DNA from: Marsupella aquatica | Lineage: Eukaryota > Plantae > Marchantiophyta | DNA: 64,000 bases | Reading direction: 5' to 3' | Assembly (NCBI GenBank): GCA_973895155.1 | Contig: OZ316891.1 | Coordinates: 5,799,708-5,863,707, forward strand | Shown: one piece after another, positions 12,085-39,649 of the stretch | Layout: every line of letters starts with the position of its first letter | Position numbering within the stretch: the first letter of the stretch is position 1 | Position numbers and translations under genes: made by a program | The notes under the pieces: generated by a model | What the model was told of the DNA's origin: nothing | Database searches by the model: none | What the model saw: the letters and a program-made list of their open reading frames with translations, nothing else

Positions 12085-13110
12085 ACAATCGCAATTTCAC
12101 GGACATGCACTCAATCGCTAATTAATACGGAGAAGAATGTTACAGTACATCGTTGTGTCTCGAGACAAGGTCATCAAGAAGAGAAGCTACATGGTCTAAC
12201 AAATTCCTATCTCGTGCAAATAGTGACGAAAACCACGATAATCTCATTATTAGAGTGCAGAATACGGAATCTGGAAGAGTCGAAAGTAGTGAAACAGATT
12301 TTGCTAGACTGAAGACGAATTGAAAATGAGTTGAGACTTTGTGAAAGCGCTTCCCCAACAGCCCACAGACGCACAGATCCTAGCAGCTGCTGCAACACTC
12401 ATACACAAATTGCACTGTCAAACAGACATTCATTCACTCCCTAACTAATCCGGAGGAGCATGTTCTTACAGTGCATCGTTTTGTGTTTCGAGAGGTTCAA
12501 CAAGAAGAGCAGGTAGTTGGTCTAACAAATTCCGATCTAAAGTGAATAGTGACGAAAACCACAAAGTTCTCATGATTAGAGAGCGGATAGGGAATCTGGA
12601 AGAGTCAAAAGTAGTGAAACAGAATTTTGTAATAGAAGACCAATTGAAAATTGAGTTGAGACTTTGTCAAAGACCCAGAGCCTAGCCGAGGCTGCAACAC
12701 TCAGACACATCGCAATTTCACAGACATGCACTCAATCGCTAACTAATATGCAGTACATCGTTCTGTGTTTGGAGAGAAGAGGAGCTAAGATGGTCTCACA
12801 AATTCCGATCTCGTGTGAAAAGTGACGAAAACCACCAAGTTCTCATGGTTAGAGAATACGGAATCTGTATGAGTCAAAAGTAGTGAAGCAGAATTTCCTA
12901 ATTGACGACCAATTGAAAATGGGTGAAGACTTTGTCAAAGCCGTCAAAGCCGTCAAAGCCCCAAAGCTTCCACATCAGCCCACAGTGAAAAGTAGTGAAA
13001 CGTAATTCGCTAGATTGAATTGAATATGAGTTGAGACTTTGTCAAATCCCCGCTTCCACATCAGCCCACAGAGCCACAGAGCCTAGCGGGTGCTGCAACA
13101 CTCGTACTCA
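12085..13110. repeat. Diverged ~300-320-bp tandem repeat, about 3 copies plus a partial unit
   Basis: Shared blocks ggtctaacaaattcc, agtgacgaaaaccac, aaagtagtgaaacag, gttgagactttgt and gctgcaacactc recur at ~300-bp spacing (units start at ~12088, ~12410, ~12709). Confidence 0.85.
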
Positions 13111-18889: not shown

Positions 18890-19215
18890 CGCATTCTCAC
18901 ATTAACATCTTTATCTGACCATGACATGTTTTTCTCACCCTCTATATCTTTTCTTTGCTCCCCGCTTTGCTCCACAGATCTACTCCTCGAGATCTTTTCT
19001 CACCTGGCTTGACATGTTTTCTTCACCTCCATATCTTACTTTTTCCTTCTTGTCATCTTCATCTCACCTTGACATCTTTATCTCACAACCACATCTTCTC
19101 CTCGCCCTCAACATCTTTTTTCACTTTGATATTTTTTTCATTTATACATTTTTTCCCACCTTTTCATTTCTCTGCTCAACATATTTTTTTCACTTTGATT
19201 TCTTTTCCTCAACTA
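18890..19215. repeat. Inverted copy of the AAGATGTCAAGGTGAGAA degenerate minisatellite
   Basis: Repeated tctcacc(t)ttgacatcttt units are the reverse complement of those at 7300-7790. Confidence 0.6.
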
Positions 19216-20744
19216 AATTATTTTTGTGGGCATGGGTTATTGTGAGATGGCCACGTACCCCCACCCTCTAAAGAAAGAATTTGATTAATTAACAAAGAAA
19301 GGTGGATATGTCTCACTTCTCCAGTAATAAAAGTTCTTCTCCAAAAGGCCTATTACCCGATATCACTATGCACAGACTAGAGTTTCCACAAGATGCACAT
19401 TACAGGGTGACAACAGGGGGTCAGATGCTCTTATTGCCAATACACGTTGTGAGCTCACTTTTACTCTGACGCTAAGAATCTTCTTGATCATATTTTACTA
19501 TGTTATTTTACAGCCATTAGATCTCCCCTAGATTTGGCTCATGTGGTTTTGAGGGCTAGGTGTGAAACTCGCATTCAAAGACCATAAGCTGAGCAAAAGT
19601 TCAGCTAAAAGTGTCCAGTACTTTTTAGTCAGATGGAATTGTCACTTTTGCCACCAAAGGAAGAGGGGAATACTTTTTCCTGATGTGGAATTTCGCTAAC
19701 TTTCGCCACCAAAAACAAGGGAGGAATAGTTTTTACCGAGGTGTAATTTAGCGAACTTTCGCCACTAGCTTGGGATTCTGTACTGTTTTGACATTTTTAG
19801 TTTTTTGGCGATGGACATGATTAATACGCACGAGGAGCAGTAGAAAGTAGCAATTATGACAAAGCGAAGCCTTCAGGAATTCGGTACTTGGGATTGGAAG
19901 GTATTTATTTTAGAGTTGAATGGAAACCGTACTCTTGTACTGAAATATAGTGTACTAACTACAATGGCGAAATCTGCACAAGGGTACTGAGGTACTGAAC
20001 CCGTAGTGTCCTTGGAGGTACAGAACCAGTCCCGGGAGGGGAGGTCGGTACCGGCCCGTTCCTCTGGCACGGCCCTCCAATCCGTCAGCGACGGCAGAGC
20101 CAGTCTTTCCGCCGACGCTCCACGCCCACTGACTGTGCAGTCTCGTCGCAATTAAAAATGCAAAAGGAATCCACGGCCAGATCTTCCCGGAAAAGGGGTC
20201 ACACGACCTCCGCCGTGAGATACTGTGTCGATGGAGCCCTCCCCAGATGCACCGTCGATCACGACGGTGGCAACGCTACTGTAGGACGGGTCTCTCACTT
20301 TTGTCGGTCCACCTTTCAAGACTGCGAATTTATATTTAGCGCAAAAGTTAATTTAATGTTACAACAGATATCACAATATCACATCTAGCACTCCAGTAGT
20401 TTTAAAAAAACTTTAAATCGTCTCATTCACTCAAGGAATAGTCAAGGTGATATTTGCCAAATTAGGAAATAAAAGGACAAACCGTCGATATTACATTGAA
20501 TGCTCCCGTAAGACGTACTCTCACGCTTGTCCGTCCACCTTTGAGATTGCAGCTTAATAATGAGGGGTATTTTGGTAGCAAAAATTCACCAACTTCCACC
20601 TTGTTCAAAAGGAATGTGCAGTTTTGGCAAAACATTCATTTTTTTCCCTTTTATTAGCCAGTTTCTCACCTAACAACACACCCATTGACCAGAAGAGAAT
20701 CTCAAGGAGTCAAGGTAATCATCAAATCTGGGGAGATCTAACTA

Positions 20745-21049
20745 ATTCACTGCGATCGCCAGTATCGATGCACATTAATGCATCGGTCTTGAGGGCTTAC
20801 AGTAAAGCAAGGCGTTTACAGGGTCGCAGTCGTTTGTGACCGTCTGCCGATTGATTCGGGCAGCATGACCTTTGCGTTGGGTGGGTTGGGGGAGGCAGCC
20901 CCATCCTGGCTGTCCCTATTCTTCTTCCCTGCCACCGGACCCGGGCCCACTATCGCCTCACCGGCCAAGCCTTTGTGTGCTGGCCCGTCAAACCCCGTCC
21001 CCCCGTCCCCCCGCCGACTTTGTATACACATAGGACGCTATGTGCTACG
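20745..21049 (+). repeat. Left TIR of the MULE
   Basis: Reverse complement of 37055-37374, with about 7 substitutions and one 15-bp indel by eye. Confidence 0.95.
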
Positions 21050-21306
21050 CATAGAGACATGACTTTGCTGTGTATATACGGATTCAAATGTAAATACCTT
21101 TTTGAGCCGGATGGGATTGGCAGAATGAGATAAACGTGTGTTCTGCACAAATTCATTGAGGGAATGGGAATGTTCGTGTTCATTCCCTGCCACACCGTGC
21201 GATTCAGGAATGGAATGGAATGTTCTCATTTAGGAGTTCGTGATTCATGTGTGCCACAATTCGTGTGCTGTAAGGCAGTTCTCATCTTTGGTGTAATCTC
21301 GGTGTC

Positions 21307-24300
21307 ATGTCTACGGCATGTGTGGCTGAACTTGCACACTTGGATTCGACATGCAATGCTGCAAATTCTCCCCACATGTCCAACATTAGCACGTTCAAGG
21401 ATGGGCCGATGTTTCCGCAAAAGCACACTCTAGATGAAGCAGTACCTCAACCACCTGAAGTGCTGGCGACTATAGCGATAGGGGATGTAGCACAGGCCTT
21501 GGATGGCATTGAACAGCATGTGCTTCACCTGACATTCGATGATGATCGAGTGCTTCAGTTAGAGGACAGGCCACAGCAAACTCCATTGATACGTAGAAGC
21601 CACAGTGACTATTCCAGATGCGACATAGTTCAGACACCTCCTCCCGGAGAATTTGAATACACTAGTTTGGAGAGGTTTGGATCGAAGAAGGATTATGCTT
21701 GGATTCCAGAGGGTAGGCTGCTGGATTTTATATAGGGATAGAATATGCGCGAGAATTTCCATACTGAGTTCACCACTCGACACATGGTACAAAACAGAAT
21801 CCACAAGACCGGCCCTTTGGTAAAGACCACAACATTGTTTTGTTGCTGCTTTGGTCCGGAAGATTACAAAGGGTGGAAATCCAGCAAAGTGCCTGAGATA
21901 TCTGAAATCTAAAGACACAGGTGTCTTTTTGAAGAGAAAAACCATAACAGGTGATCCAGTGATTTTACTGTTCTGCAATTACTTCATTGTACTCCTGTTT
22001 TGCGTCAATTTTTATACTTGAATGCCTCGGTTAATGCTTGGCTTCTTGCGCATGTTCTCCACTCTGAATTGTGTGTGCACCATGTCTTCTCTGTAGGAAT
22101 GTTTGTACGTCGCGGTTGCAAATGTTCTTTTACTTCCACAAAATACGAGGATCGGCCAGGGGTTGTACTGATAAAATGGATCCGCAAAGATCATTTGGAT
22201 ACGCAAAATCTGGTTTTTCATGGCCTGCACGATTCGACTGCCTTCGAAGCAAATGCACACATTGCCCCTAGAATTTCCCTAAAGCTACGCACCAAAATCG
22301 AGCGATATCTTAGGGCAGGGTTGACAGCAAGAGCAATTGGTGATGCCCACTTTGAAGAGATTTTTACGAGATGGCGTAAAGACCACCCGGATGAGGATGC
22401 CGATGTAATCATGTCCAGGGACATGCAGCTTACTCCACGAGATGTGCAAACTGTGAGGGATTCAATGCGAAGGCGACAACCAGACTATTGTTGTGACGAA
22501 GCGCAAGCTACAAAATTGTGGGTCCTTCAAAATGCAGACCACGTGATCTTATATCAACCGCAGATAACATCTAAAAACCAGCCTTTCATTTTATTCTGGG
22601 CATCTCCTTGGCAGCAAAAGAAGCTATCGCTTCTTGGTCATGATGGACTTGTAGCATTTGATGCAACGTTCGGTACCAACCACTTTGGAGTAAGCTATGC
22701 ATTCACTATACCTTGTTTGCCAATCCATTTACATGTGTGTTGCCATTAATTTAGAATTCACGGTCACTGTTCCACATTTTTTTACTGAGTTTTGTACTGT
22801 ATATATATACCACTGACAGCACTTTTAATTCTTGTTTTCTTTATCATTGGCAGTTCCCTTTCTACACAGTTGTTGTGTATGACAAACTCCAAAACGCCAT
22901 TCCCGTAGCATAATTTGCTCTCCTGCAAATGTACAAAGCCCTACAAGTTAGCCAAGTCCTCACAGCTTTGAAAGACTGCGTGAATGCCAAGAGGACAGAA
23001 TTGAATTTGCAAGTTCCGTGGACACCTACCTCTTGGATTATTGATGTAGCGGACGAGGAACAAGCAGCAATCAGGTTTACTACATATCATGTCATTTTCA
23101 TACCACTGCAGTCTTTCATATTAAATGCATGCCCTGAATAAATTATTTATATTCATTCACTCCTGTCATGCAATTTAATGTGTTTTCTGTACCTGTAGAC
23201 AGGTTTTCCCAAAAGTGCCTATCACATTTTGCACTTGGCACGTTCGTAGAGCCTGGACCAAAAACATTATCTCCAAGGTTTTCTGCCCCTTTGCCAAAGC
23301 CCAGATCAATGCGGATCTGGGAGCTCTCATGTATTCTCATGCAAGCCTGGATGGAAGTGGTGAGAACTCTGCGTGTGCTTGTAATGTGTTGGCTGTCTGC
23401 TTGTATTATGTTCGACCTGTGCTTGTAATGTGTTGGTTTCAGCACAATAGTTTGACATGGATTTATTTAGATTTCCAAATGCTAATATTGTATACATTAC
23501 TTTGCAGACATGATTGAACAGTCCCAAGCTTTTATAGATCAATGGCTACTTACCCAACCAGTATTTGCTGCATATTACAAACGGGAGTGGCATAATAAGG
23601 TTTGCAATTGGGCAATACAGTTCAGAGGGTACAATCATGCAAACCAGAATACAAATGGGGGCATCGAACGCTGGCACCACACCCTAAAAATGGAGTTGAA
23701 GGCGGGTAGGTATAGCATTATGGGATGGTCCATTCCTTGGCTACTTGGTCGACTGAGAGTTTTGGAGAATCACTACTGGTGTATTGCTGCTGACAAATTT
23801 CAGGGGCGAATCAAAAACAAGACGATAGAAGGGCTTGTGCATAAGTCCCTGAATAGAGCAAAGTCAATCCCAGATGATTACGTCCAAACATTTCAGTGGG
23901 GTCTGGCCAATTGTGCATGTGTTAAAAGCACTTCTTCAAACAACCCAAGCAGCAAGGAACATCTTGTCACTAATTGGGACAAAGATAGTTGTCAATGCAC
24001 ATGTGGGTATTCACTTCAAGGGAATGCATGCAAACATCAGGTAATTTTGAATTCACTTCCTGCTTCAAAACTGCTTTGCAAATCATCCGATTAGACTAAA
24101 CAGCTTCCTCATTCAAATTTGCGACACCTCTCAACCGGTTTCCATTCACGTGCAGATAAAAGTTCTTTTGCTTACAAAGAAGATGACAGAGTTGGAAGTC
24201 CTTCATCAACTCGGAACAAAAATGGGATTATATTCTGGTGGTCTTGACCAGCATTTCAAATGGATGCATGGGGATTGCCCAGAATTACCGACTTATGTAG

Positions 24301-25160
24301 GGAATATCAATCTCACGTACCCGGATGAGGATATGTGGGAACAGCCAACAGATGACACGAGCCAGTTTATGGTGCCTTCTCCACCCGTGGAGGAGTTTCA
24401 AGCTATAGTCACCACATGTTACAATCAAATTGCACATCACCCAACTCTTGCCAAACAAGGTCTCGTTGAGCTGAAGCATTGGATGGAGTCTCTCTTCACC
24501 AGAGAGGCCCAACAAAATGTCGCAAGGCTGGACATACAGTCTGGTCATGAAGCACTCACTCCCGCTGAAGGGAGTGATAGGACTACAGTTGGCAAACGCG
24601 GCTGGGTAGACAAACTCATGGGTGTGAAGGGTAGACGCAAGCGCAAGGGGAAAGTTGCCATAGACTCCAACAAAGAGAACGTGGATCCGTATCCTCCGGG
24701 TGACCCATAGAATTTGGTGAGCGGAGCAGATGCACCTGAGAGATTGCGCGTGACAAAAAAGGATAAGGCATTATCATTCCAAGCCAAATTTGACAAGGAA
24801 TCTGTAGACGCCCTTGCGGACATGTGTCGTGCCATCACAGACCACACTGGTACCAGGGCACAGGGAGAATGTATAAAGCCCTTTGCGTCAAAGCCAACAC
24901 GGAGGACCAAGAACCGAGCAGCTCCACCATTTCCGCTTAGCAACGTCATCAATCAGGCATCGAAATCACGTGTACTCAAAGCGCCTCTGACCCAGGCAAG
25001 TATGGACGTCATTGGAAATGTTCAAATTGGCTCCAGCCAAACGTGGGCTATGTCGCCCAACTTTCCAGACATTTTACGTGCCTTCTCCACAGGATGCGCA
25101 AGTGACATCAATGCAACGACTACTGTAGAAGAGAATATAGTGTCCATTGCAGATGAATAG
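21307..25160 (+). pseudogene. MULE transposase with C-terminal SWIM zinc finger, multi-exon, with nonsense mutations
   Basis: CCFGPEDY, RRGCKCSF, first Asp in GLVAFDATFGTN (~22660), second Asp in WIIDVADEE (~23043), CTWH (~23230), Glu in TNGGIERWH (~23665), SWIM CQCTCG..GNACKH (~23990-24035). GT-AG introns; in-frame stops at 21733, 21739, 21910, 22911 and 24708. Confidence 0.88.
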
Positions 25161-25838
25161 TTGTAGTACATTGAATATATGAACAAAGTGGCCGACGTTG
25201 GCCCCAGTATATATTATCATTCGAGTATTTGGACTTGAATCTCCGTTCATGGAGAAGATTAAAAGGGTTTGTGTATGGAAAAGAAGGTGTAACGAATGGC
25301 AAAGACACGGGTGTAACGAATGCCAGTCAGATACATGCATGGTAGTAGTTCAACAATGTTACACAAGTTCCACCGAATGAATGTAGTGTCGAAGAGTACT
25401 TGTACTGAGATGACATTATGAAGAGAGCCATGGAAGATACATTTCCCCAAAAAGGGCAAGGAATCATACCACACATTCCATTCGGGCTTCCATGGAAGCT
25501 GAACTGCATACACATGTTTAGAGGGCTGAAGACAAAACTTTTATATATTTATCCAAGGTGGGTAGGCTCACAAAAGTGAAATAATTGGAGGACTATGCCT
25601 ACGTCCTTACAATCCTTTCAGCGCCTTGTACAAAAATGCGTGAGGATTGGCCTCCCAACTCAAAATGCTAGTCTTCAAAATGCCAAGCACTACACGACAT
25701 AAAGGTCCTTATATATATGTAGTCTTTGTAACTGTGAATATGAAAATAGGGCTGGCCTACCACGAAAATCGGACGCTGAAGTCATGTTATTTCATGTATC
25801 CCCTAACATTGTGTAACCACTGTTCATATCCTAGCAGC

Positions 25839-28624
25839 CTACACAATATCATCATCATCGGAACCAGATCCAGAAGGAGCATCACTGACAGACGCACTTG
25901 GGGTATTCAAATTTGCCACAACTTTCTGTAGCTCTGCGGTTTGAGAGGACAAGAAAGTAATTTTGTCCATGATCTCCGTCAATGGTGTGGACCTCCTATA
26001 CGTCTGTGAGAATTGTTGGGAGGCAAGGATTGCTTCCGTTTGACTGGGGGAAAAAGTGCCTTCACTTGGAACATCGTTTGAATCGTCCACATGAACTGCA
26101 ATGACTGGATCTGTTTCGGGCTCCATTGGCGGATGTAGTGTATTACCTTTGGGTTCCGCCATGGCAAGTGGAACATGTATACTAGCATGGCGTGATGGAC
26201 TTCCTGCATTGGATGAGGAGGCCTTCAACAACGGATCCACATTATTTGTTGCAGGGGGGGCCTCTGGGAATGCATCATGTGATGCAAAGTTGTTGGTGAC
26301 CCAGGTAACATTAATCTGGTGCTCCTTGGCAAGCATCTCGCGTGCCAAATCTGGAAACAACTCAGCGGCATCTGAATCCAGACAACGAGCTTCATCCTTC
26401 CGTTCAGCGTCTGACTCCTCAATGGGCTCCTCATTTGAGGTGTCAGTCCACTCCGCCTCCTCTTCAACCTAGAGGACAATCGCCAATATCACACATGAAA
26501 GACATTGAAATTGAAGAGGGTTGTGTTTCATCAAATTACAATACAACGAACGTCGTGGTAATGCATGACCGAATGATGTTAACTGTAGTGGCACTGCAGG
26601 ATGGAATTACCTTCTTCATTGCAACATCATGAGTACTTGAGTTGAGCTTCTTATACATGGCCACGATGTTGGGTATGTAAGTCTGAACCGCCTTGGGCTT
26701 ATGATGTGCCTTCCAAACCGCATACTCCTTCTCGCCCATAGTCTGATAACGTGGCCAACCATGCTCCTCTTCCCATAGTAGACTCTGATGCTTTGTACGC
26801 ATCCAGTTGAGGGCATTGTGACACAACTCTGTCCGATGCAGTGCCATGGCATCATGGATTTCAACAGACTCAATTGATGCATCAACTGGTTCAAAGAAAT
26901 TCCTCACAACTGTTGCACTTCGGATGAGTCTTCCACTTTGAAACTCATCTAATTCTGCAAATGCACTGTCTTGAATATCAGACAAAGCTCTGCTGGTCCA
27001 CCCAAATACATACGACAAATTTGGGCATTGCAAAACCAAGGCCTGCAACCGAGCCCAGTCACGGTCATTGGTGAGACTGTCCCACACGTGGAAGTGAAGT
27101 TTGGGCATCATAAACTGAAAGAAAATTAAGAACATGTTTTGAGATGGAACTGTTGGTGGCGGGTTCTGTAAACGGTTTTGTTCAAACCGGGTTACAAACT
27201 TGCTCTGAGTCGTTGCTCTGAAAAATAGACATACCCACAGACATGCATATATAGTAAGCCATAGTGCATGGTGAGATCGATGTTGCATTCGGAAACATTA
27301 ATTGCTTTTCAATAACACAGTCACCCTGGTGACTAAAGCCTTCAACATAGACACATACTTCACCCTTCTTTTGGCCATGCTCCAATGTTGTCTCAATGTC
27401 CCTCTTACGTTGTAGTAATTGGGCGAGCATTCAGCCCCTGGCTGCTTCCGGCGTGCAACATTCCTTGCCTCACGTTGTTGCTGTGCAACAACGTTTATGG
27501 TATACAATGATCGAGGGGTCCCTTCACTAATGAGACCATGCTTCTTGAAAACATGGCAACCGTATGTGCGAAGGTTCCTGAAAGGCACCATCTTACAAGG
27601 CAACGTCTTGCACACAGCGCCACTAAAGTATCGAGAGAAATGAACCCCCTCTTTAGCCTTGCATATGACTGTTGATTCCTGTTCACAAGGGTAAGACATA
27701 AATCGTGAATGCCACTACACAGTTGCAATTGTAGAAAGGCATGTAAATAATTGATAATTGGCGTACAACAAAAGAAATGTGGATCCTTCTTACAAATTTG
27801 CATTTGGCACATGCTTCGGCCCTTCCTACACATTCACAAACATCTGAAGGGCTATGGTCCAAACTCCCCGTTGGAGACAACGTGTTTGTCGATACACGGC
27901 AGCCACTACGGGTCCCTCTCTTGGGGGCTGGATCAGAGTCCTCCACGTCAATGTTGATTGCGTCTGTGTCTATATTCACCTGTGCTTTGCCTTTTGTTCC
28001 GAGAAACCGGCCTGGGTGTTCATTATACTAAACCCCAACCTTAGCTTGTCGTGGAGTGAACCTGATGGATGGAACAAGGTTCTCCAACCGAACATTACAT
28101 TTCCTTTTCTTTCCAGTTGTGCTTGGCACAGGTTTTGATGGGGCAGTTACTATGACTGCAGTGACCTCGTTGCAGGCAGGTGGCGGTGAGTGAGGCAACA
28201 ACGGGGAAGGTGGTGCCGGTAGAGCTAGCACCGGAGTGAGCAAAGGATGCCCTTGCGAGTGAACGGAGGGCAATTGAGTTTGGCCATTCGGGGCAGGTGC
28301 TGGTGTCAGCGTTGGGGGCAGCACTGGCACGTTTGCCTCCGAGAATGGCACGTTTGCCTCCAACAATGGAATGGCTACCTCCGACAATGGACCACCGGGC
28401 AGACTTGGTTCCACATGTAGTACAGTGGGCGAATGATGGAGATTGTCCCACATAGCAAGCCTCTTCTTGGAGGCCTGAAATGAAAACCCAATGAGTGAGT
28501 GACATGGTGTACATGTCAAAAGTAACTTAAATTAAATTAAGGAGTTGGAAGGCAATCAGTTTAAGTAAATTAACCTAATCAGGTTTCAGTGATTCGTAAG
28601 TACCTTACTCTTGGTTCGCGCCAT
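25839..28624 (-). pseudogene. MULE accessory gene, ~764 aa, H3-like N-terminus MARTKSKASKKR, one nonsense codon
   Basis: Exons 28624-28604, 28474-27794, 27714-27359, 27217-26611 and 26468-25839 join at GT-AG sites in consistent phase (2295 nt). One internal TAG at 28028-28030. Confidence 0.7.
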
Positions 28625-29163
28625 ACTGTCTCTTCACACCTGCAATATAAATGAATACTGAACATCAATCATAGGCTGCAATTTAGCTATGGCTATATTC
28701 GAATACTCAGTAATGAATTACTAATCACATAAGAGGATCATTTGTTTCATTCATTCACTTGTAGCGTACGTACCATTTTATTCGTTTGATATCCATTCAG
28801 TGAAACAATCATTGCAATACATATTACACATGGCGCCTGAATGAACGACACCGCAAAAGCAAAGGATCGACAATGCCAATCATTGGGACTTCAAAATTTC
28901 CAGAATGCACGACGAGTGCAGTCAGATGTATCCCTGTACTTCATTATATATTGCAAGTAAGAGTGCAAAGTACACGGCAGAACACTTTGAAAAGTAAGAA
29001 TGCAGAGTAAGCACAATACAACACTTTGAATACAAAAAGTTTCCTTGCTTCGTCATACATAGTGAATGTAGCGTTTTCCTGTATTGCAACAAGGTGCAAC
29101 ACAGAACAATAGTTACACAAAGTACTTGCAAAGCTAAATTGGCTACGGTCAACTGTCCACTGT

Positions 29164-30066
29164 CTATTTGTTACGCCCAGAGTAGACATCCAATGAGGCG
29201 CTGAAAACTTCTGCTAGACGTCGAACAATGGAAGACATGGAAGTGCCCTCCTGGATGTCTTCGTCGGCATGGACATGTTCTTCACCCTGGAGCACATCCA
29301 ATATTGGAACTCCACTTGATGTACCTGTTGTGCAAGAGCCCTGCGATTGAATTATTGGTGACTGGGCTGGATTTGCGGATGGTGTATTGCACATAGGGGC
29401 GGGGGACGATAGTACAACAGCAGACGGGGCTGGACTGACATTCGATTGGGTTGAAATATATGGGCTACCACCCTCACCGGAAGCGCGTAGCCATGGCGAC
29501 AGCTGAGGATGTTGGGATCCTTGTCGCCGCTGGGTTCGCGTCTGTGTTCATAAACGTGGCTGCGGTAACTGAGTGTTTGTTGAAACAACCTCCAACTCGA
29601 CAATAGATAGAATTCTGCGATTAATCCGGAATCTCACATTGCAGAGTGGCGCATGCTTCAGAGAATCATGTATCACTTGGAACTGATCGATTGCCTCCAT
29701 ACAAGCTAATGCACTTGCAGAGAGTCCTACTAAATCCCTCGTGGCATCCCAAATGGCAGCTCTCAAAGAGGACTGATGGGCAGTACATTGCACCGTAGCA
29801 TCGGTCATCAACACCTCAAAACGATAGAATTCACTATAAAGTCCATTCTGCAAGGCATCATGCTCGCAATGAGTGCCTCTAGGGCCTTCGATTGAAACCT
29901 TGCACATGCCTCGATGGATACCCTGTGTATAGCCTCGATACAGAAATTTCTTTGGGAAAGGATTACTAGCAATGAAATTGAATACCACAACAGTACATGG
30001 TCCAATAAACCCCGTCTCCTCTCTCATGACGGCATTCTGCACATAGACCAGAGTTGGTATCGACAT
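29164..30066 (-). pseudogene. MULE accessory gene: RPA70 C-terminal-like OB-fold followed by an S/P-rich tail, ~300 aa, one nonsense codon
   Basis: FLYRGY...CKVSIEG...CEH...YRFEVLMTDAT...LRAAIWDATRDLVGLSASAL matches the Rep_fac-A_C pattern (Y.l.v.i.D.T...f...ae.l.G.sa). ORFs 29548-30066 and 29164-29394 share a frame, separated only by TGA at 29548-29550. Confidence 0.65.
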
Positions 30067-30356
30067 TGATATTGCCTTACCAAAATGGAGTTACTCTGCT
30101 TCTTGTTGAACGTATGGGATTGAGAACAGACTTTGCTTAACTTAAGCTCTCTACAAAAAATGCAGAGCAATGCGTAAGCCTATGCGCAAAAGCATCTAAG
30201 AAAAAGGAATTCATCGAAGGTCAACCTAAATGTTCCATTCAAACAATGCAACATTTACCGAAAATGGTGCTGAATCCACGCTCTGCACATGCGCCTCGCA
30301 TCGGAATGTCGACTGCCAATGTGTAGAATGGCAGGGTATGCAATAGGTCAGGAAAG

Positions 30357-30830
30357 TGTTGAGCATAGACGATGATCGCAACGGCAAGCCCATGAACCAT
30401 CCAACGCACAATAGTCGACACAAGAGATACGTGGTTCACCTCCTTGAGGCTACGTCCACGGGAACACACAAGAGAGCTTTACTGAACTCTAAGCCCGTCG
30501 ACTATACCGAGTCTCCACAGTGTAAGCTCTCCCTATCTCTCAAGTGGCTCCATAACAATGAGCCTTGGTTCTACCTCTCCAAGCACACATGCCTCTTATG
30601 ATATAGTGTGCAACTTAGTTGTACCTAACCACATAGTTGTACCTAATCACGTAGTTGTACCTAACCACATAGTTGTACCTAATCACGTAGTTGTACCTAA
30701 TCACGTAGTTGTACCTAACCACATAGTTGTACCTAATCACGTAGTTGTATCTAACCACGTAGTTGTACCAACCACGTTGTTGTACCAACCACGTCATACC
30801 TAACCTAGACGTAAGAGTAAATACCCAACA
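30357..30830 (-). repeat. 3' LTR of the copia element
   Basis: Matches 36483-36956 except A30669 vs G36795. Confidence 0.97.
30616..30793. repeat. 18-bp tandem array inside the LTR (also at 36742-36919)
   Basis: tagttgtacctaa(c/t)cac(a/g) x8 followed by two 17-bp variants. Confidence 0.95.
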
Positions 30831-30845
30831 ATCTTCCCCTTGACT
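30831..30845 (-). promoter_or_regulatory. Polypurine tract
   Basis: Minus strand AGTCAAGGGGAAGAT lies immediately before the 3' LTR. Confidence 0.85.
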
Positions 30846-31020
30846 CTGGTCTAGGGGAGAGTAATACTGCCAATGTATATGATCCCTCAGCGGGAAGTTC
30901 TGGACAGAACCAAACCGGTTTCCCTCTCTAACTAGAGCAAACCAGAACTAAGCCGTAGCCTAATACATAGGAATGAGGAAGAGCATATATCAGTAATTAC
31001 AATGAATGTTTAAGAAAACT

Positions 31021-34000
31021 CTACTTGTGATGCAATTGCAAAACCTGCAATACGTCACGGTGTCTAGAGAAACTCTCCAAAGGAATCACTTTGGTAAATG
31101 CGTCAGCCGGGTTGAGTTTACCATCAATCTTGACTAGCTCAAACAAATTATCAGACACAGCCTGCCTGATAAAATGGTACCTGACGTCAATGTGCTTCAC
31201 TCTGCTGTCCATCACCTGGTTCACAGCAAGGTGGAGCGCACTTTGACTATCACAATGGAGCTTCACATTCCCCTGTGGCAATCCCATTTCAGTGATAAGT
31301 CTATCCAACCAAATCGCTTCCTTTGTTGCTTCCGCAGCTGCAACATACTCCGCTTCTGTAGTAGACTGAGCAATACACTTCTGCAAAGTAGACCTCCAAC
31401 TTATGCATCCACCGCCAAGTGTGAACACGTATCCTGTTGTTGATCTCCTTCGGTCCAAATCTTGTCCATAGTCAGAATCTACATAGCCAATCAATGATCT
31501 AGCATTCTTTGCATTCGCATCAAATAAAAGACCATGATCCACGGTACCCTTCAAGTACCTGATAATCCACTTCACTGCTTCCCAGTGTACCTTCCCTGGA
31601 TTCGACATGTACCTGCTCACCTTGCCCATAGCCATGGCAAGATCAGGTCTAGTGCAAGTCATCAAATACATGAGACTCCCCACTGCCTTGTCATATGGAA
31701 CCTTTGACATCAACCCCTTCTCTGTGTCATCCGTAGGACAGAACGCTGATGATAACTTGAAGTGTGGAGCCAACGGGGTACTTACTGGCTTGCTATTCTC
31801 CATGTTGAACCTTGCAATTACCTTCCTCGCATAACTGCTCTGCGTCAACCATAGCTTGCCAGCCTCCAAGTCCCTAGTGATCTTCATACCCAAAATCCTC
31901 TTAGCTGGCCCTAAGTCCTTCATCTTAAACTCTGCACTAAGCAGTGCCTTGAGCTTAACAATCTCAGACCTATCCTTGGCTGCAATTAGCATGTCATCCA
32001 CATAAAGTACTAAAACAATGAACCCAAAGACAACATTCTTCACCGGTTTCAAATACACACAAGGGTCAAATACACTTCTGTGAAAACCTTGTGACCGAAT
32101 CCAATCGTCAAACCGCTTGTTCCACTGTCTTGGTGACTGCTTCAACCCATACAAGGATTTCAGCAATCTGCAAACCAATTCCTCCTGTCCTCTCTTCACA
32201 AAACCTAGCGGTTGTCTCATGAAGATCACCTCTTCCAATGTGCCATAGAGGAAAGCTGTGACAACATCCATCTGATCTAGGAGCAGACCAAACATTACAA
32301 CAAGTACACACAATAGTCGTATTGTAGAGTACTTAGCAACTGGTGAGAAGACCTCATTGTAATCCACACCTTTCTCTTGTGTGAATCCCTTTGCTACCAA
32401 TCTAGCCTTGTAGACCTTCGATCCACCTCCTATGGAATTATCCTTCAGCTTGTAAATCCACTTGTTGTCCACCACTTGCTGATCCTTAGGCAGCTTAACA
32501 AGCTCCCAAGTTTTGTTGTCCTTTAGTGACTGCATCTCCGTTTGCATTGCTGCAGTCCACTTCTGCTTCTCCTTTGAAGCACTTGCCTCATGAAATGAAG
32601 AAGGTTCTCCTTCTTCCAAAATTAACGCATCACCCTCATCATCAGCTGTAAAATCATCCTCTTGCAGTTGAGATGAATCAACCCACTGTCCATACCTTGA
32701 TGGAGCGCGTACAGTGCGACCAGATGTTCTTCTAGCCGATGACTCCGGTTGATCTGCGTGTGCTGGTACAATTTGAAGCTCAACAGCATCCACTTGCTGC
32801 TCACCAGCATCAACAAACTCCTCTGGTTCCTCTGGCACAGGAACCAGCTCCATAATTGGAGCAACTCCTTCTCTCCGGTCATGCACCTCATAACCAATCT
32901 CCCCCTCAACGAGATCCGGGATAGGAGATTTTCCTTTGTCAGTACGGGAGACCTGAGTATTCTCCCCCTCCTTCAATAATCTGGATTCATTGAAGGAAAC
33001 ATCCCTACTGACAACGAGCTTACAGGCAATAGGATCCCATAGCCTATAGGCTTTCACACCACTCTGGTACCCAAGAAAAACACATTTCCTGGAGGTAGGA
33101 TCCAACTTGGTCCTATTCTGCTTTGGTGTGAGAGCATATGCATCACTTCCAAAAATTACCAAGCCATGATAGTCTGCTTGCCGCTTATAGCGCATCTCAA
33201 ACGGCGTTTTGAAATTGATAGCACTAGAAGGAGAAAGATTTACCAAATAAGCTGCGGTATTGACAGCTTCTGCCCAAAATTCTTGTGGTAAACCTGATTG
33301 GCTCAACATACTCCGTGACCGCTCCAACAGTGTCCGATTGAGCCTCTCAGCGACACCATTCTGCTGCGGAGTATAAACTGTGGTGAGATGGCGAGTTATC
33401 CCCTGTTCTGAACAGTACTCTTCAAATTCCATTGAAGTGTACTCCCCGCCGTTGTCTGACCTCAGACTCTTCACCCTTGTATCCAAACACTTGATCGTGT
33501 TTCCAGTCTGATTCTCCACCTGGGCCTTCCACTTCTTAAAAATGGACAAGACATCAGACTTATGCGTCATGAAATAAATCCACACAAATCTTGAGTAATC
33601 ATCAATAAATGATACATAGTACAACTTTCCAGAGTGTGAGGGAGTCGGGGATGGACCCCACACGTCACTATGTATGTACTCAAGAACCGCTTTGGAACGA
33701 TGAGTTCCAACACCAAAAGCACGACGATGCTGCTTTCCAAGAATGCAATGCTCACAAAACTCTAATTTACAAGATTGCAAATCAGAAATGAGTCCATTCT
33801 TCCGTAAGATAGCCAAACCCTTCTCACTCATGTGGCCTAGCCGTGAATGCCACAGTTGAGTCATCTCCTCGTGAGACTTGGTTACATTGGCCTCTCCACA
33901 TACAGTATTGCCCTATAACACATACAAATTCTTTTGTCTACTCCCCTTCAAAATCACTGTCTCTCCCGACCTGACTTGAAGTTCACCATCAATAACGCTC

Positions 34001-34293
34001 CATTGATGACCATTTGAATCCAACACACCGAGTGAAATCAGATTCTTATGCATGCCAGGTACATACCTGACTCCGGACACTGTGCGCACAGCGCCATCAA
34101 ACATTTGAATCTTCACAGACCCAATTCCCTCAATTTGACAGGAGTGATCATTTCCCATCAGAACTGAACCGTTTGAAATAGAGTAAGAACTGAAAAACTC
34201 ACGAATGTAACAAATATGAGAAGAGCAAGCACAATCAAGAATCCACACATCATCTGCTCTCCTAGATGACGTGCACAGGGCATACCCCCGGCT
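31021..34293 (-). CDS. Copia pol (protease, GAG-pre-integrase, integrase, RT, RNase H), one internal TAG at 33913-33915
   Basis: WILDCACSSH (protease), LWHSRLGH and CEHC, IHSDVWG / LRSDNGGEY / QNGVAER (integrase), KARLVAKG, QMDVVTAFL, LYVDDML (RT), YVDSDY, TEAEY, KHIDVRYHF (RNase H). ORFs 33913-34248 and 31021-33864 are in the same frame. Confidence 0.93.
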
Positions 34294-35328
34294 TCATAAA
34301 ACATACTCATCATTGAGTAAATCAGCTTCTCCATCAGCCCTAGCCACATTTGCCGATGAAGTTTCCGCTGCCTTTCCCTTACAGTCTCGCTTGAAGTGTC
34401 CAACTTGGTTGCACTTCCAACATGTCACCTGCCTCCTCTGAGGGGATTTACCCTTGGACTTAGATCTGGATTTAGATCTAAACTGGGTTCTACGGTCCCC
34501 AGTTGGTCGCTGCATACTCCTCCCACGGTTAACATTGAGGGCAGCACCAGATGATGAAGGCTGTGACGTGATGTGCATCTTCTGCTGAAGATCATCACTA
34601 AGCAGAGAACTTACCACGTCATTGTATGAAATGGTATCCCTATCACGATGCAACAACACTCGTGATAGGGACTGGTAAGATGGAGGCAATGAACTAAGAA
34701 GCTGCAGAGCCTTCGTCTCATCATTCAAAGTCTCCCCAAGGTTTTCCAAGTCAACGACCATGTCGTTGAAAGCATCCACATGGTCTTGCAACTTCGTACC
34801 AGATTCCTTCATCCTGAAACTCATCAGTTTGTAGGAAGTGTAGAGCCGGTTCGACAACTCCTTGCGGTGATACTTGCTCTGCAATTCCGCAAATAAGGAC
34901 ATGCAATCCTTATGTGCACCCAACTGCTTGATGATGGGAGGCATGAGATAGAGTGTAACACACCACACTCCCTGCTCCTGCATGCGGTCCCATTGTTTCT
35001 CATCAACATCGTCTTCACGAGGGCTCAGCAGTTGGCCCATCCCTGACGCATAAAGCACTCCCTTCACCTGCTTCTCCCATAGCAAGTAGTCAGAGCGCCC
35101 ATCATACTTTGTCACTTCATACTTGGGTCCCCCAAGCTTGAAAGTCCCCATCTTCTTCTTTACCGTGAGCTCCGGTAGTAGTACTGCTTCCTCCACCACA
35201 CGCCGCACCGGTGATGGTATCGGTGTCACGTGCTCTTCCTCCTGCTCCTCTCTCTGCCCCTGAAACCTCCGCGGTGACCCTCGTGCTTCAAGTTCCACGT
35301 CTTCGAAAAACTCCTCCGAATCACTCAT
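34294..35328 (-). CDS. Copia gag
   Basis: KYDGRSDYLLWEKQV, LLSSLPPSY and the CCHC knuckle CWKCNQVGHFKRDC; ends in a TGA in frame with pol. Confidence 0.93.
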   Translation of the reverse strand: MSDSEEFFEDVELEARGSPRRFQGQREEQEEEHVTPIPSPVRRVVEEAVLLPELTVKKKMGTFKLGGPKYEVTKYDGRSDYLLWEKQVKGVLYASGMGQLLSPREDDVDEKQWDRMQEQGVWCVTLYLMPPIIKQLGAHKDCMSLFAELQSKYHRKELSNRLYTSYKLMSFRMKESGTKLQDHVDAFNDMVVDLENLGETLNDETKALQLLSSLPPSYQSLSRVLLHRDRDTISYNDVVSSLLSDDLQQKMHITSQPSSSGAALNVNRGRSMQRPTGDRRTQFRSKSRSKSKGKSPQRRQVTCWKCNQVGHFKRDCKGKAAETSSANVARADGEADLLNDEYVL

Positions 35329-36468
35329 ATGAGAAAGTCACAAAAAATGTTGTTTTTCACAACTTCTCAAAAAACTCGAAACTCAACACCGCCGCGTAGC
35401 CCACAAAGCTAGGAGTCCAATACTGAAAACCGAAATCAAAATCAAAATTTGACGGAAAAGTTATTCAAATTTCGGTCGAGGTGGGTAAAACCTTGGGAAA
35501 CTCCCCCGTTTTGACCACCTCAGGGAATAACCGAAATACCAAGTACAACCCGTTGTCGGAATTGCGATGTGATTGGTGCGCTGCATTGCCAACTTCAATG
35601 GCTACGACCTCGCCGAAAAATAACCAAAAAAGTTACCGTTCGGCGGATGAAATCTTTGTCGGACGGTCAAAAAATAGCTCTCTGGTTTTTTGGAATATTC
35701 TATGACCCTTGTACAGGCCCTGTGGGAATTTTGGAAGAACAATCGAGGGGCTGACATGTGTCCTCGAACCCCCAAAACCCCCTACCACCCTTCGTCGTCG
35801 AAATCTGGTCGCGCGCGCAGAAAATACACACGGCAGAATGTACCCCTCGACACCAAACGCAAGATATCTCACTCGGGTTTTGACTAAATCAAGATCCGAT
35901 TTCAGATTTGGAAACTAGACTCCGAGGCGATGAAGATCGATATAAGAAGCACCCAAAACAAGGAAAGAACGAGGGAGAAAAAAATTGGTAAAGATGACAG
36001 ATTTCTCTCAATTGCCATAGCCAATTTCGAATCAGTTTTTCAAAGAGAAAAAAATGGTACCTTGTCAACAACGAATGTTGATCAATTGCACTTGGTGCCG
36101 TCACCAAGTCCAACAAGGTAATTGATTTTGCTTAGCCTTCCTCTTTGCATCAAAGAGCCAATCCCGGACTCAAAAACAATCGTCTTGCCTCAATCTCTCC
36201 GTTGAGTCAAAACACTTGACGCTTCTCCCTCCGAGTCGATTGCCAACTTTCTTCACAAAATCCAGAACGACGAAAACTTAGATCTCTCTGCACCACGAGC
36301 TCCGTTCAACGATTTCTTCACACCGTTAGAAAGCTCTTGCCCTGATCTATCCGTTGAGCCCATAAACTCCAAGTTCCATGCGATGGAACTCTGGAAAATC
36401 CACCAACACTCAACGCTGGAAAAACCGTCATGAAATCCCGTCACGAACACACGTCACCTCCCAAGCAT

Positions 36469-36480
36469 GCTCTGATACCA
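36469..36480 (-). promoter_or_regulatory. Primer binding site, initiator tRNA-Met
   Basis: Minus strand TGGTATCAGAGC lies 2 nt inside the 5' LTR. Confidence 0.95.
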
Positions 36481-36482
36481 AT

Positions 36483-36956
36483 TGTTGAGCATAGACGATG
36501 ATCGCAACGGCAAGCCCATGAACCATCCAACGCACAATAGTCGACACAAGAGATACGTGGTTCACCTCCTTGAGGCTACGTCCACGGGAACACACAAGAG
36601 AGCTTTACTGAACTCTAAGCCCGTCGACTATACCGAGTCTCCACAGTGTAAGCTCTCCCTATCTCTCAAGTGGCTCCATAACAATGAGCCTTGGTTCTAC
36701 CTCTCCAAGCACACATGCCTCTTATGATATAGTGTGCAACTTAGTTGTACCTAACCACATAGTTGTACCTAATCACGTAGTTGTACCTAACCACGTAGTT
36801 GTACCTAATCACGTAGTTGTACCTAATCACGTAGTTGTACCTAACCACATAGTTGTACCTAATCACGTAGTTGTATCTAACCACGTAGTTGTACCAACCA
36901 CGTTGTTGTACCAACCACGTCATACCTAACCTAGACGTAAGAGTAAATACCCAACA
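36483..36956 (-). repeat. 5' LTR of the copia element
   Basis: 474-bp direct repeat of 30357-30830. Confidence 0.97.
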
Positions 36957-37054
36957 GAAAGTGCGCCTAGCGGGAATGAGTACATTCAGCCAATGGGACT
37001 GAATGGGCTACCCTACACGCAAAGACCCACAAAATTGTTTGCATACAGCATACA

Positions 37055-37374
37055 CGTAGCACATAGCGTCCTATGTGTATACAAAGTCGACGGGGGGACG
37101 GGGGGACGGGGTTTAGGGGGACGGGGTTTGACGGGCCGGCACACAAAGGCTTGGCCGGTGAGGCGATAGTGGGCCCGGGTCCGGTGGCAGGGAAGAAGAA
37201 TAGGGACAGCCCGGATGGGGCTGCCTCCCCCAACCCACCCAACGCAAAGGTCATGCTGCCCGAATCAATCAGCAGACGGTCACAAACGACTGCAACCCTG
37301 TAAACGCCTTGCCTTACTGTAAGCCCTCAAGACCGATGCATTAATGTGCATCGATACTGGCGATCGCCGTGAAT
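37055..37374 (-). repeat. Right TIR of the MULE
   Basis: Inverted copy of 20745-21049 with an extra 15-bp local duplication in the G-rich part. Confidence 0.95.
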
Positions 37375-39649
37375 TCTAACTACCGTAGTCATTAATTAAT
37401 CTATGAACATTAGGTACAGAAGATTTAGCATCATTCTTTTAATCTTTTCCTTCTCAAGATGACATTCTCCACCCTGGTTGCTTGCTAGGTTGAAGATGCT
37501 CTCACCCACCAGGCAACTAAGCAAAGTTAACTGGAGCCAGTTCTTTTGCTAGGTTTGATGAGTGCTTCAGTCCATTTGTGTTAGTTTTGGTTCTTCTTTC
37601 CCTGTTTTTAGAGGTTCCTCATTGGTCACTCCTTTTGCATTTTTGTTCACTTTGGAATTCTTTTGTTTATTCTTTTGTACTCAGTCTGGCCCTTTCTGTA
37701 AAAAGTTTGTAACATCTATTTTCTGTTCCAAACTAGTTTATGCATACACACAACATGTGCAAAAGCCATGGAGCCAATTGAAACCAGTTTCACTGGTTAC
37801 AGGGTCCATATTTTATCTAAGTTTGAACAAAACCAAGGCTGGCCAGGTTTTAGGGCAAGGACCTCTCATGAAACTAAAAAGAACAAAAAGGAAAAGGGTG
37901 TTAGAACTCTACCCTATGGCTGCCCTAGTGCTACTTATTTAGAACCTCCAAAGATCTTTTATTATTAGCCCATGCTGGAACGAATTGCAAGCACTGTCCG
38001 TAAATGTCATTGGGGGGTCCCAAAGCTTCACTGTGGTCTCAACGCTTCACCCTATAAAAGTTAATTAAGGTCAAATTGTTCGTGACCATCTAACTTTTGG
38101 TATGAGCTCAGACCTTTTTGTAAACTCAAAGTGATGATTGTGCCCTTTTTCATTGTAGGGACAGAAAGTTGTACTACTTATGTGTAGCTAAGGTGCTTTG
38201 CGGATGGCATCATTTTCGTCAGATATTTCAGAAAACTGGCACGAAAAGGCTCACAACGACCTTGCGTATAGGTCTATTGAAAAAGTATTTAAATATATTT
38301 TTTCCTAAAGTGTGTAGCTTGCTTATAGCCATAGCTCACGGTAATTGTTTATGCCTAAAAGTTAATGATCATAAATTTGAGATTTCATAACTAACCCATA
38401 ATTTGTAGTTAAGTAGAAGAATTGAGTCTTTGAGATGCCCTAATTGAGTTCCCAACAGGTCAATCCTTTATGTTAACTAACTTAAATTTTAGAGCTAAAA
38501 AATTAAAAATTAAAAAAAAACTTAAATTTTAGAGCTATAAGCCAATCCTCATGGCAAATGTATTGCTCAGATGGGATTTCCAAGCTCATATTGATCTTGA
38601 AAAACATGTTTTTTTAACTAGGGTGCCATGGATGGACTTGCATAAAAAGAGAATCTTGAAAACAGTCATCTGAGTTAAAAGGGTTGGGAGATCCCATGTA
38701 TTACTGATCCAGGTGTATGACATTTGCAATCAAATTAGAAGGCCTAGTTTACTTCCTCAGTGCTAAAGAGAGAACAAACGTTCCCAATAGATTTCTGCTC
38801 AAACTGACCAATGAGACAGACCTTCCTTGAGACTGTCCATTCCAAGCTCACAATGGACAGTCTCCTTCCTTGAGGTCATTACATTAGTGTAGATGTGGAC
38901 CATTGGTCCATCACACAATGGCAGTGGTCAATATTTTCCCATTTTTATCTTTTTCCTTTTTCTCGTTTTTTGGGGTTTACCTTTGCCCTCTTGTTTTGAG
39001 TTTGGTGCTTGTCAGTTTTCTTTTTCTAAAATTTGTGAAACCCCATGGACACGGAGGCAATAGAAGCCAGCTTTGAACCCAAGATCTATGAGTCCCTACT
39101 CAAGTGAGCTAACAGACAGCCATGCCTGCTTTGGCATGGTGTTTGTCAGCTTTGCACCTCTTAAATTTTTTCTTCATTGTACTTTGTTTGGCCCTTTTGT
39201 AAATAAACTTAGAATGTAACTTTCATGCTCTTTTGACAATTATGCAATGTTGGGTTTCTTATTGTTATTATTTACGGACCCCCACTAGGGGTCTCTTGCA
39301 AATTCTCTGCCATGAGGTTGTGCCACATCACCACAACTAGCCACAAACAGGAATGATCATACTTTTAACAATAACAAACATGCACATTCCTGTTTGTGGC
39401 AAAAGCAAAGTAATTTTTGGGACGCCATGCCGTAAATATTAAACGTAAAAAAACCAAAATACAAATGAAAAGATGTCATTTAGTAAAACAAAGTTACCAT
39501 TTTGATGTTTGTCAAAGATATATCAGTGTTTTATATCAAAATGCTCATATTTTTTAATTGTTTGCAAATTTGAAAAAAACAATCGATAGAAATGTACATA
39601 GTTAAGACCCCTTTGGCTTCACATTGTAAAACTAAATAATAAATCTCCT

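What the first reader, a model, noticed from the sequence alone, without database searches (positions are those of the whole stretch)
25839..28624. Transposon-encoded protein with a histone H3-tail-like N-terminus (MARTKSKASKKR) on its own 21-nt micro-exon
Seen: on - the coding exon ATG GCG CGA ACC AAG AGT AAG|GTACTT (28624-28604) splices to ttttcatttcag|GCC TCC AAG AAG AGG. Four more phase-consistent exons give ~764 aa: MARTKSKASKKRL, a Pro-rich region, a KKRK basic patch, a Cys cluster (CECVGRAEACAKCKF), a globular-looking middle and an acidic tail. The ORF track misses this exon. Established: after Met removal H3 begins ARTK, the free-N-terminal epitope read by H3K4 PHD/ADD readers and modifiers; Arabidopsis VANDAL MULEs encode anti-silencing VANC proteins. 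Inference: this could be a TE-encoded histone mimic or anti-silencing factor. A 4-residue match could be chance, and the start codon is predicted, not proven. This copy has one TAG (28028).
Basis: partly seen in the sequence, partly recalled or inferred. Interest (0 to 1): 0.85.

Follow-up and report, generated by a model that had tools for sequence, protein, structure and literature searches.

The report
Transposon zinc-finger gene with H3-like tip
A broken copy of a many-copy plant jumping gene carries, besides its transposase, a second gene for a predicted zinc-finger protein of an undescribed family that likely helps the element recognise or regulate its own DNA; its predicted first four residues match histone H3, a match that is untested and may be chance.

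Summary
The five-exon, 764-aa model with one TAG is reproduced. The gene faces a broken transposase inside a Mutator-type element (20745-37374; ~305-bp TIRs, 8-bp TSD, nested Copia). The first coding exon is probably 36 nt (28639-28604, 15 nt untranslated). The MARTK start is likely (~75%): the rival ATGs fail in other copies or give a two-codon uORF. No RNA run was available. 19 relatives (12 from the liverwort Calypogeia fissa) support exons 3-5. None tests MARTK: 18 start downstream and one begins with a PLATZ domain. The MARTK codons are inferred unchanged in two close copies (6-26% by chance). The second H3-register lysine (K9) is Asn in another copy, and the most divergent copy could not be read. 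The VANC markers DUF1985 and DUF287 and target arrays are absent. Verdict: a real, new accessory-gene family of a known element type; H3 mimicry stays open (~20%). The scan earlier noted two-gene moss MULEs with zinc-finger partners (unchecked).

The parts
20737..20744 (.). left target-site duplication, 8 bp (TCTAACTA)
   Evidence: identical to 37375-37382
20745..21049 (+). left terminal inverted repeat, ~305 bp
   Evidence: 93% over 320 columns to the right TIR; 15 contigs of X3 and 14 of X4 run into unrelated flanks before 20745
21274..25160 (+). Mutator-type transposase gene, multi-exon, broken in this copy (stops at 21733-21741 and 24708-24710; a one-base difference in length from other copies at 21899)
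   Evidence: SWIM finger PF04434 E 0.0075, below the curated cut-off; FDATFGTN, CTWH and ERWH stretches read as DDE-transposase motifs from recall; other copies differ at 21734 and 21739, inside the two stops, and at 21899
25839..26468 (-). accessory gene exon 5: acidic, S/T-rich tail and stop
   Evidence: relatives align across the exon 4/5 joint (W-x-D-T-S-x-E-E); composition
26611..27217 (-). accessory gene exon 4: ~200-aa all-helical domain of an undescribed family
   Evidence: 19 relatives, E 9e-36 to 4e-4; AlphaFold2 pLDDT 92.7, eight helices; no Pfam family at E<=0.05; no clear fold match
27359..27678 (-). accessory gene exon 3 (acceptor at 27678 or 27714) with a predicted C2H2-type zinc finger at 27612-27538 and a basic helix
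   Evidence: C-x4-C-x13-H-x4-H in the window and in both relatives that cover it in frame, P0001 and P0012
27794..28474 (-). accessory gene exon 2: ASKKR, Pro-rich stretch (23% Pro), KKRK patch, Cys cluster; premature TAG at 28030-28028
   Evidence: no relative covers it
28604..28639 (-). accessory gene first coding exon, predicted 36 nt: 15 nt untranslated + ATG at 28624 + MARTKSK
   Evidence: acceptor TGCAG|GT, donor AAG|GTACTT, A at -3 and G at +4; exon GC 0.50 between intron-like stretches of GC 0.33; the 15-nt leader carries a 2-nt deletion in other copies
28640..28776 (-). upstream ATG|GT (28776-28774) and 134-nt intron-like stretch; spliced to 28639 it gives only M-V-stop, spliced straight to 28474 it would give MASKKR
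29164..30090 (-). third, unexplained reading frame(s) in the element: 180-aa beta-rich ORF, a TGA, then a 127-aa S/P-rich ORF
   Evidence: covered by diverged contigs in all four runs; no Pfam, PDB-sequence or Atlas hit; model pLDDT 37
30357..36956 (-). nested Copia-type LTR retrotransposon (LTRs 30357-30830 and 36483-36956, 5-bp TSD); a recent insertion, not part of the Mutator element proper
   Evidence: RVT_2, rve, gag_pre-integrs, Retrotran_gag_2; the LTRs differ at 1 of 473 compared positions once the off-by-one end is removed
37055..37374 (-). right terminal inverted repeat
37375..37382 (.). right target-site duplication

Best explanation
This is the accessory gene of a many-copy Mutator-type DNA transposon, broken in this copy, that encodes a predicted nuclear protein with one C2H2-type zinc finger and a novel helical domain, which likely binds the element's own DNA and helps it stay active or move, while its predicted MARTK start is most likely a basic, nuclear-targeting-like tip that resembles histone H3 without needing to. 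Shown: element boundaries, convergent gene, exons 3-5, conserved finger pattern, multi-copy family. Inferred: the start at 28624, zinc and DNA binding, nuclear location, any regulatory role. The layout (disordered Pro-rich arm, basic patches, finger, folded helical domain, acidic S/T tail) is that of a DNA-binding regulator, in the position of maize mudrB.
For: TIRs, 8-bp TSD and SWIM transposase. Diverged contigs cover both genes in all 4 runs, and 14-15 contigs leave the TIR end into unrelated flanks. 19 relatives at 22-39% identity, 12 named from Calypogeia fissa and 7 unnamed. The finger pattern is kept in P0001 and P0012. The helical domain is confidently folded. The conserved part of the family is finger plus helical domain; the one relative with a long N-terminal region has a PLATZ domain there, not ARTK. 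Residues 1-13 are 46% K/R. In one other copy exon 2 begins A-A-N-K-R, so K9 is not kept (loose end at 28481 in X3 and X4, translated by hand). A relaxed H3-like start (M-small-R-x-K) occurs in 48 of 20,996 human proteins (PMC8166343, passages).
Against: No DNA-binding or activity datum exists. Pfam does not call the finger in the window (P0001 only E 0.14 to a C2H2 model). No enriched target word or array was found in the element. The genomic context of the relatives could not be read, so their transposon location is inferred only from their number and fragmentary state. MARTK codons are inferred unchanged in two close copies whose flanks differ, and the ARTK match is exact, followed by A7 and K9 in H3 register in this copy.
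Confidence: 0.5

Rival explanations
1. Functional H3-tail mimic. After Met removal the free ARTK tip would be bound or methylated by host H3K4 readers and writers (PHD fingers, MSI1/RBBP4-type WD40 proteins, H3K4 methyltransferases). The zinc finger would tether that activity to the element, recruiting an activating complex or decoying a repressive one.
For: Exact A1-R2-T3-K4, plus A7 and K9 in register with the H3 peptide ARTKQTARKS printed in PMC8166343 (6 of 9 positions in this copy). The start is probably real. Bases 28608-28625 are inferred identical in two copies that differ in the intron and leader (0 of 1056 consistent placements put a difference there). Human N-terminal H3 mimics are enriched in chromatin proteins and include zinc-finger factors (BCL11, FOG1, SALL1) that bind NuRD through the tip (PMC8166343, passages). 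The same tip-plus-finger layout is present here.
Against: Eighteen identical bases have a 6-26% chance at the measured intron divergence, and silent positions are identical too, so this does not show protein-level selection. K9 is Asn in another copy, and R8 and S10 of the ARKS motif are missing. The most divergent copy seen fails to align over 28501-28635, which includes the exon (joint 28500-28636 in X1 and X2); that fits loss of the motif or silent drift. 0 of 21 related proteins contain ARTK, but 20 of them start downstream of the region. Chance rate 1 in ~2,000-70,000 genes.
Confidence: 0.2
2. The protein does not start with MARTK. Transcripts skip the 36-nt exon and start at the ATG at 28776 (MASKKR...), or translation starts downstream.
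For: ATG|GTACGT at 28776-28774 is a good donor and joins 28474 in frame. No transcript was seen.
Against: The 36-nt exon has consensus splice sites on both sides, exon-like composition and a good start context. Including it gives introns of 134 and 129 nt, like the other introns (115-142 nt); skipping gives 299 nt. The LAMWD Met is Leu in another copy, and the ATG at 28672 is lost or followed by a stop in the three other lineages whose loose ends reach it (by hand).
Confidence: 0.18
3. The gene is a captured host gene carried passively (Pack-MULE-like), with no role for the element.
For: MULEs often capture host sequence (PMC6446971, passages). One relative is joined to a PLATZ transcription-factor domain.
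Against: The gene is whole, with four or five introns, and present across diverged copies. Frame and acceptor are kept with silent changes at the start of exon 2. Twelve divergent, mostly fragmentary paralogues in one liverwort look like a transposon family, not a host gene.
Confidence: 0.1

Closest known systems
Maize MuDR (mudrA + mudrB) and other multi-ORF MULEs (PMC6446971, passages)
   Same: Long TIRs, 8-11-bp TSD, SWIM-bearing transposase, an extra gene of unknown biochemistry. The convergent layout of mudrB is recalled, not from a call.
   Different: No Pfam family was hit and no mudrB sequence was compared directly. This element has a C2H2-type finger, a novel helical domain and a third ORF.
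Arabidopsis VANDAL elements with VANB/VANC anti-silencing proteins (PMC5735166, PMC10398659, passages)
   Same: A MULE with two extra genes; an accessory protein with a conserved core and variable low-complexity arms.
   Different: No DUF1985 or DUF287. No enriched short-motif arrays. No activity data.
Human H3 N-terminal mimicry proteins, H3TMs (VRK1, BCL11B, TSHZ1, HIVEP1; PMC8166343)
   Same: Fits the defining pattern M-small-R-x-K at the predicted start; a zinc-finger protein, as several H3TMs are.
   Different: H3TMs are host proteins with in vitro binding data. This one is transposon-borne, its start is predicted, and neither binding nor conservation is shown.

Membership tests
Mutator-like element (MULE) | long TIRs (often hundreds of bp) | tested here: met
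   305/320-bp arms, 93%
Mutator-like element (MULE) | 8-11-bp target-site duplication | tested here: met
   8 bp, exact; range from PMC6446971
Mutator-like element (MULE) | DDE transposase of MULE type with SWIM finger | tested here: inconclusive
   SWIM E 0.0075, under the curated cut-off; the Pfam MULE domain was not hit by the separate exon pieces; D, CxxH and E motifs recognised from recall; one homologue search with a transposase piece found none
VANC anti-silencing protein | DUF1985 and DUF287 domains | tested here: not met
   no Pfam hit at E<=0.05 in 5 of 5 exon-bearing ORFs; neither family in 19 of 19 relatives
VANC anti-silencing protein | short target motif accumulated in tandem arrays in the element's non-coding DNA | tested here: not met
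   top 7- to 10-mers of 21070-30351 do not exceed the maxima of 30 shuffles; 6 short tandem repeats, none sharing a unit
VANC anti-silencing protein | sequence-specific loss of DNA methylation in trans | not testable with these tools
   needs expression in plants
H3 N-terminal mimic (H3TM) | M-small-R-x-K at the true N-terminus | tested here: inconclusive
   pattern met on the predicted start; the start is supported by splice signals and by other copies, not by RNA
H3 N-terminal mimic (H3TM) | R2/K4 conserved across divergent relatives | tested here: inconclusive
   inferred unchanged in two close copies, within chance; unreadable in the most divergent copy; relatives lack the region
H3 N-terminal mimic (H3TM) | binding to H3K4 readers or methylation at K4 | not testable with these tools
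   no eukaryotic reader could be supplied to the complex predictor; no job was sent
C2H2 zinc finger | C-x2-5-C-x12-13-H-x3-5-H conserved in relatives | tested here: inconclusive
   C-x4-C-x13-H-x4-H in the window, P0001 and P0012; no Pfam C2H2 call in the window, E 0.14 for P0001; not folded
Histone H3 / CENH3 | histone-fold domain after the tail | tested here: not met
   no histone family in the Pfam scans of the exon ORFs; the tip is followed by a Pro-rich arm

The most novel reading that the evidence does not exclude
A bryophyte Mutator element encodes a sequence-specific zinc-finger protein whose free N-terminal ARTK is a working histone H3K4 mimic, tethering or decoying host H3-tail readers at the element: a transposon-borne counterpart of viral histone mimicry and a mechanism for anti-silencing unrelated to VANC.
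Probability: 0.2. Interest if true: 0.8.

Novelty: new variant of a known kind. Interest (0 to 1): 0.42.

Why it matters
Accessory genes of Mutator elements (mudrB, VANB, VANC) are known, but how they act is mostly open. This one defines a further, unrelated accessory family, with a finger and a confidently predicted helical domain that has no match in Pfam or in the three fold libraries searched. If the H3-like tip is functional, it gives an anti-silencing mechanism testable by one point mutation. None of seven literature searches (listings and abstract starts only) showed a transposon-encoded N-terminal H3 mimic. If the tip is chance, the finding is a modest new example of a known element type.

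Tried and rejected
No whole genome is held, so copies could not be collected directly. No RNA holder was listed; this says nothing about expression. Three word-index protein searches found nothing (exon 4, longer; transposase piece, longer; alignment A1, 722-2060 aa): weak evidence. Two metagenome scans and one viral scan gave no confirmed relative. Atlas: no usable hit for exon 4 or the third ORF. Fold searches of the helical domain: Foldseek PDB best E 1.4, VIA-align best Z 5.2 at rmsd 4.9 over 64 residues, at background level for helical bundles, BFVD best E 1.4; absence of a match is no proof of a new fold. A PDB sequence search with A1 gave two proteasome chains at E 0.2 and 0.9, ignored. 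The third ORF's model was too poor to use. Rfam: 0 matches in 20700-37400. Rejected: the 716-aa splice model (worse against relatives); an intron hiding the TAG (the only in-phase candidate is 65 nt, GC 0.49, weak donor); the start at 28672. The empty rows's difference table over 28602-28627 are NOT evidence of conservation, because differences within 30 letters of a piece's end are not listed; only the overlap argument is used. A contig that fails to align over 28517-28591 but fits on both sides (X1, X4) was not counted as a divergent copy, since one indel would explain it. Whether the TAG at 28030-28028 is private to this copy was not shown (only 40 of 2706 difference rows were printed). No complex prediction was sent.

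Full report
Observation. On the minus strand, 28624-28604 reads ATG GCG CGA ACC AAG AGT AAG followed by GTACTT, and a TTTCAG acceptor opens exon 2 at 28474. Using the acceptor at 27678 gives 752 aa. Relatives fix the last two joints. P0001 aligns over 291 columns across the exon 3/4 joint at 36% identity with one gap, against 37 gaps for the alternative; P0004, P0005 and P0008 continue into exon 5.

The element. The gene lies in a DNA transposon at 20745-37374, with ~305-bp TIRs (93% alike) and an exact 8-bp TSD. A multi-exon transposase on the plus strand (about 21274-25160) has a SWIM hit at E 0.0075, below Pfam's cut-off; its catalytic motifs are recognised from recall. The accessory gene points towards it. 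A third frame (30090-29164) and a very recent nested Copia element (30357-36956; RVT_2, rve and gag hits; LTRs differing at 1 of 473 positions) complete it. These features fit MULEs as described in PMC6446971 (passages). Four runs of two studies hold the stretch, none on record as RNA. Their contigs cover all 30 bins of 20700-30400 (29 for X2) at 80-100% identity, and 15 (X3) and 14 (X4) contigs leave the TIR end at 20745 into unrelated flanks, so this is a multi-copy family. This copy is decayed: other copies differ at 21734 and 21739, inside two transposase stops, and by one base at 21899.

The protein family. An HMMER search of 1.84 billion representatives with exon 4 gave 19 hits (E 9e-36 to 4e-4, 22-39% identity). 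Twelve are unnamed proteins of the leafy liverwort Calypogeia fissa and seven are unnamed Logan proteins, so the host is probably a liverwort or other bryophyte (inference). Exon 4 folds as eight helices with pLDDT 92.7 and has no Pfam family at E<=0.05 and no clear fold match. Exon 3 holds C-x4-C-x13-H-x4-H, kept exactly in the two relatives that cover it in frame, P0001 and P0012; Pfam does not call it in the window. The layout is a basic tip (46% K/R), a Pro-rich arm (23% Pro), the finger, the helical domain and an acidic S/T tail.

Is MARTK the start? Probably (about 75%, my estimate). A TGCAG|GT acceptor at 28639 makes the exon 36 nt long, with GC 0.50 between two intron-like stretches of GC 0.33 and 134 and 129 nt; the other introns are 115-142 nt. 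The ATG has A at -3 and G at +4. The 15 nt ahead of it carry a 2-nt deletion in other copies in all four runs, so they are not held in frame. The ATG at 28776 gives M-V-stop through this exon, and MASKKR only if the exon is skipped. Loose ends, translated by hand, show a copy whose exon 2 begins A-A-N-K-R-L-A-L-W-D: same acceptor and frame, silent changes, and Leu for the LAMWD Met. The ATG at 28672 is lost or followed by a stop in the three other lineages whose loose ends reach it. Without RNA, skipping remains possible.

Is it a mimic? Against the H3 peptide printed in PMC8166343, this copy matches A1, R2, T3, K4, A7 and K9. Results for: from contig overlaps and difference counts in run X2 (records 13-16), no consistent placement (0 of 1056) puts a difference in 28608-28625, so two other lineages keep the MARTK codons (an inference from graph topology, not a direct reading). 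Results against: 18 identical bases have a 6-26% chance at the 7-14% substitution rate listed for the intron, and silent sites are identical too. K9 is Asn in another copy. R8 and S10 are missing. A7 is the first codon after an AG|G splice site. The most divergent copy seen does not align over 28501-28635. None of 21 related proteins contains ARTK; 20 begin downstream of the region and one, P0012, has a PLATZ domain there (E 5e-19; possibly a gene-model fusion). With assumed residue frequencies the exact start arises in 1 of ~2,000 to ~70,000 genes (no proteome was on hand), and the relaxed pattern in 48 of 20,996 human proteins (PMC8166343). The decisive conservation test could not be run.

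VANC comparison. VANC proteins carry DUF1985 and DUF287 and bind short motifs amplified in tandem (PMC5735166, PMC10398659; passages). Neither domain was hit in the exon ORFs or in 19 relatives, and no 7- to 10-mer exceeds shuffled maxima. It is not a VANC. It may still work like one, and the finger suggests sequence-specific binding (inferred).

Mechanism. Most likely (0.5): a nuclear DNA-binding helper of its own element, whose basic tip resembles H3 incidentally. Rivals: a working H3K4 mimic that brings or decoys readers at the element (0.2), a start other than MARTK (0.18), a passive captured gene (0.1). The mimic reading has a precedent in layout: human zinc-finger factors such as BCL11, FOG1 and SALL1 bind NuRD through an H3-like tip (PMC8166343). 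Transposons of Marchantia are associated with H3K27me3 (10.1101/827881, title and abstract start only), so the relevant silencing may differ from Arabidopsis.

What was read. PMC8166343: abstract, introduction, start of methods, passages. PMC5735166, PMC10398659, PMC6446971, PMC13547354: passages (the last has no occurrence of 'histone' in its main text). 10.64898/2026.08.24.746577: abstract and outline. PMC11738798: abstract start; a term search in it was empty. No supplements were opened; the H3TM list in the supplement of PMC8166343 could bear on how rare the exact ARTK start is. Seven searches listed no transposon-encoded N-terminal H3 mimic; subscription papers are mostly outside this library.

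Earlier notes of the scan (unchecked) describe two-gene moss MULEs with a single-zinc-finger partner, and a viral protein whose MARTK tip failed a conservation test. Sequence look-ups found no look-alike of this locus.

Verdict. A real accessory gene of a new family in a decayed Mutator-type element: a new variant of a known kind. The H3-like tip is probably the true N-terminus, but nothing here shows it is selected or functional. Interest 0.42; 0.8 if mimicry proves true (probability about 0.2).

Noticed in passing
window 30090-29164 (-): Third frame in the element: a 180-aa beta-rich ORF whose pattern (Y-x-x-Y..C..C, R-F-x-V-x-x-T-D-A-T, W-D-A-T-x-x-L-V-G-x-S-A) reminds me of the C-terminal OB fold of RPA1 (recalled, not from a call), then TGA and a 127-aa S/P-rich ORF. 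Pfam, PDB-sequence, Atlas and fold tests gave nothing. The Copia insertion lies just upstream of it.
   Followed up: partly
P0012 (CAM6103829.1, Calypogeia fissa): A relative in which the finger and helical domain follow an N-terminal PLATZ domain (E 5e-19); either a real domain fusion in a transposon or an annotation join.
   Followed up: partly
window 30357-36956: Very young Copia-type element with near-identical 474-bp LTRs that contain an 18-bp tandem array; the pol frame is interrupted by stops at 33913-33915 and 34294-34296. It has far higher depth than the Mutator element in all four runs.
   Followed up: partly
window 28776-28634 (-): If the upstream ATG|GT is spliced to the 36-nt exon it forms a two-codon uORF (M-V-stop) ending 9 nt before the MARTK ATG, a possible translational brake.
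   Followed up: partly
window 28325-28390: 21-bp tandem repeat (3.1 copies) inside exon 2; other copies lack 21 bases there or differ in length, like the variable peptide repeats reported for VANC.
   Followed up: no
window 6782-7737 and 18894-19226: Arrays of short repeats in inverted orientation about 11.3 kb apart, with ~325-bp internal repeats at 12088-13110; possibly the ends of another DNA transposon.
   Followed up: no
window 54522-59708 (+): Exons of an apparent host gene with a signal-peptide-like start and repeated W-x-W-x-D-H-G motifs (weak PQQ_2 hit, E 0.021), probably a beta-propeller protein.
   Followed up: no
window 2545-3138 (+): 197-aa ORF that looks like a peroxiredoxin/AhpC-type redoxin (recalled from the sequence, not scanned).
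   Followed up: no
window 48614-49613: About 1-kb element with nested inverted repeats (41, 39 and 26 nt), MITE-like.
   Followed up: no
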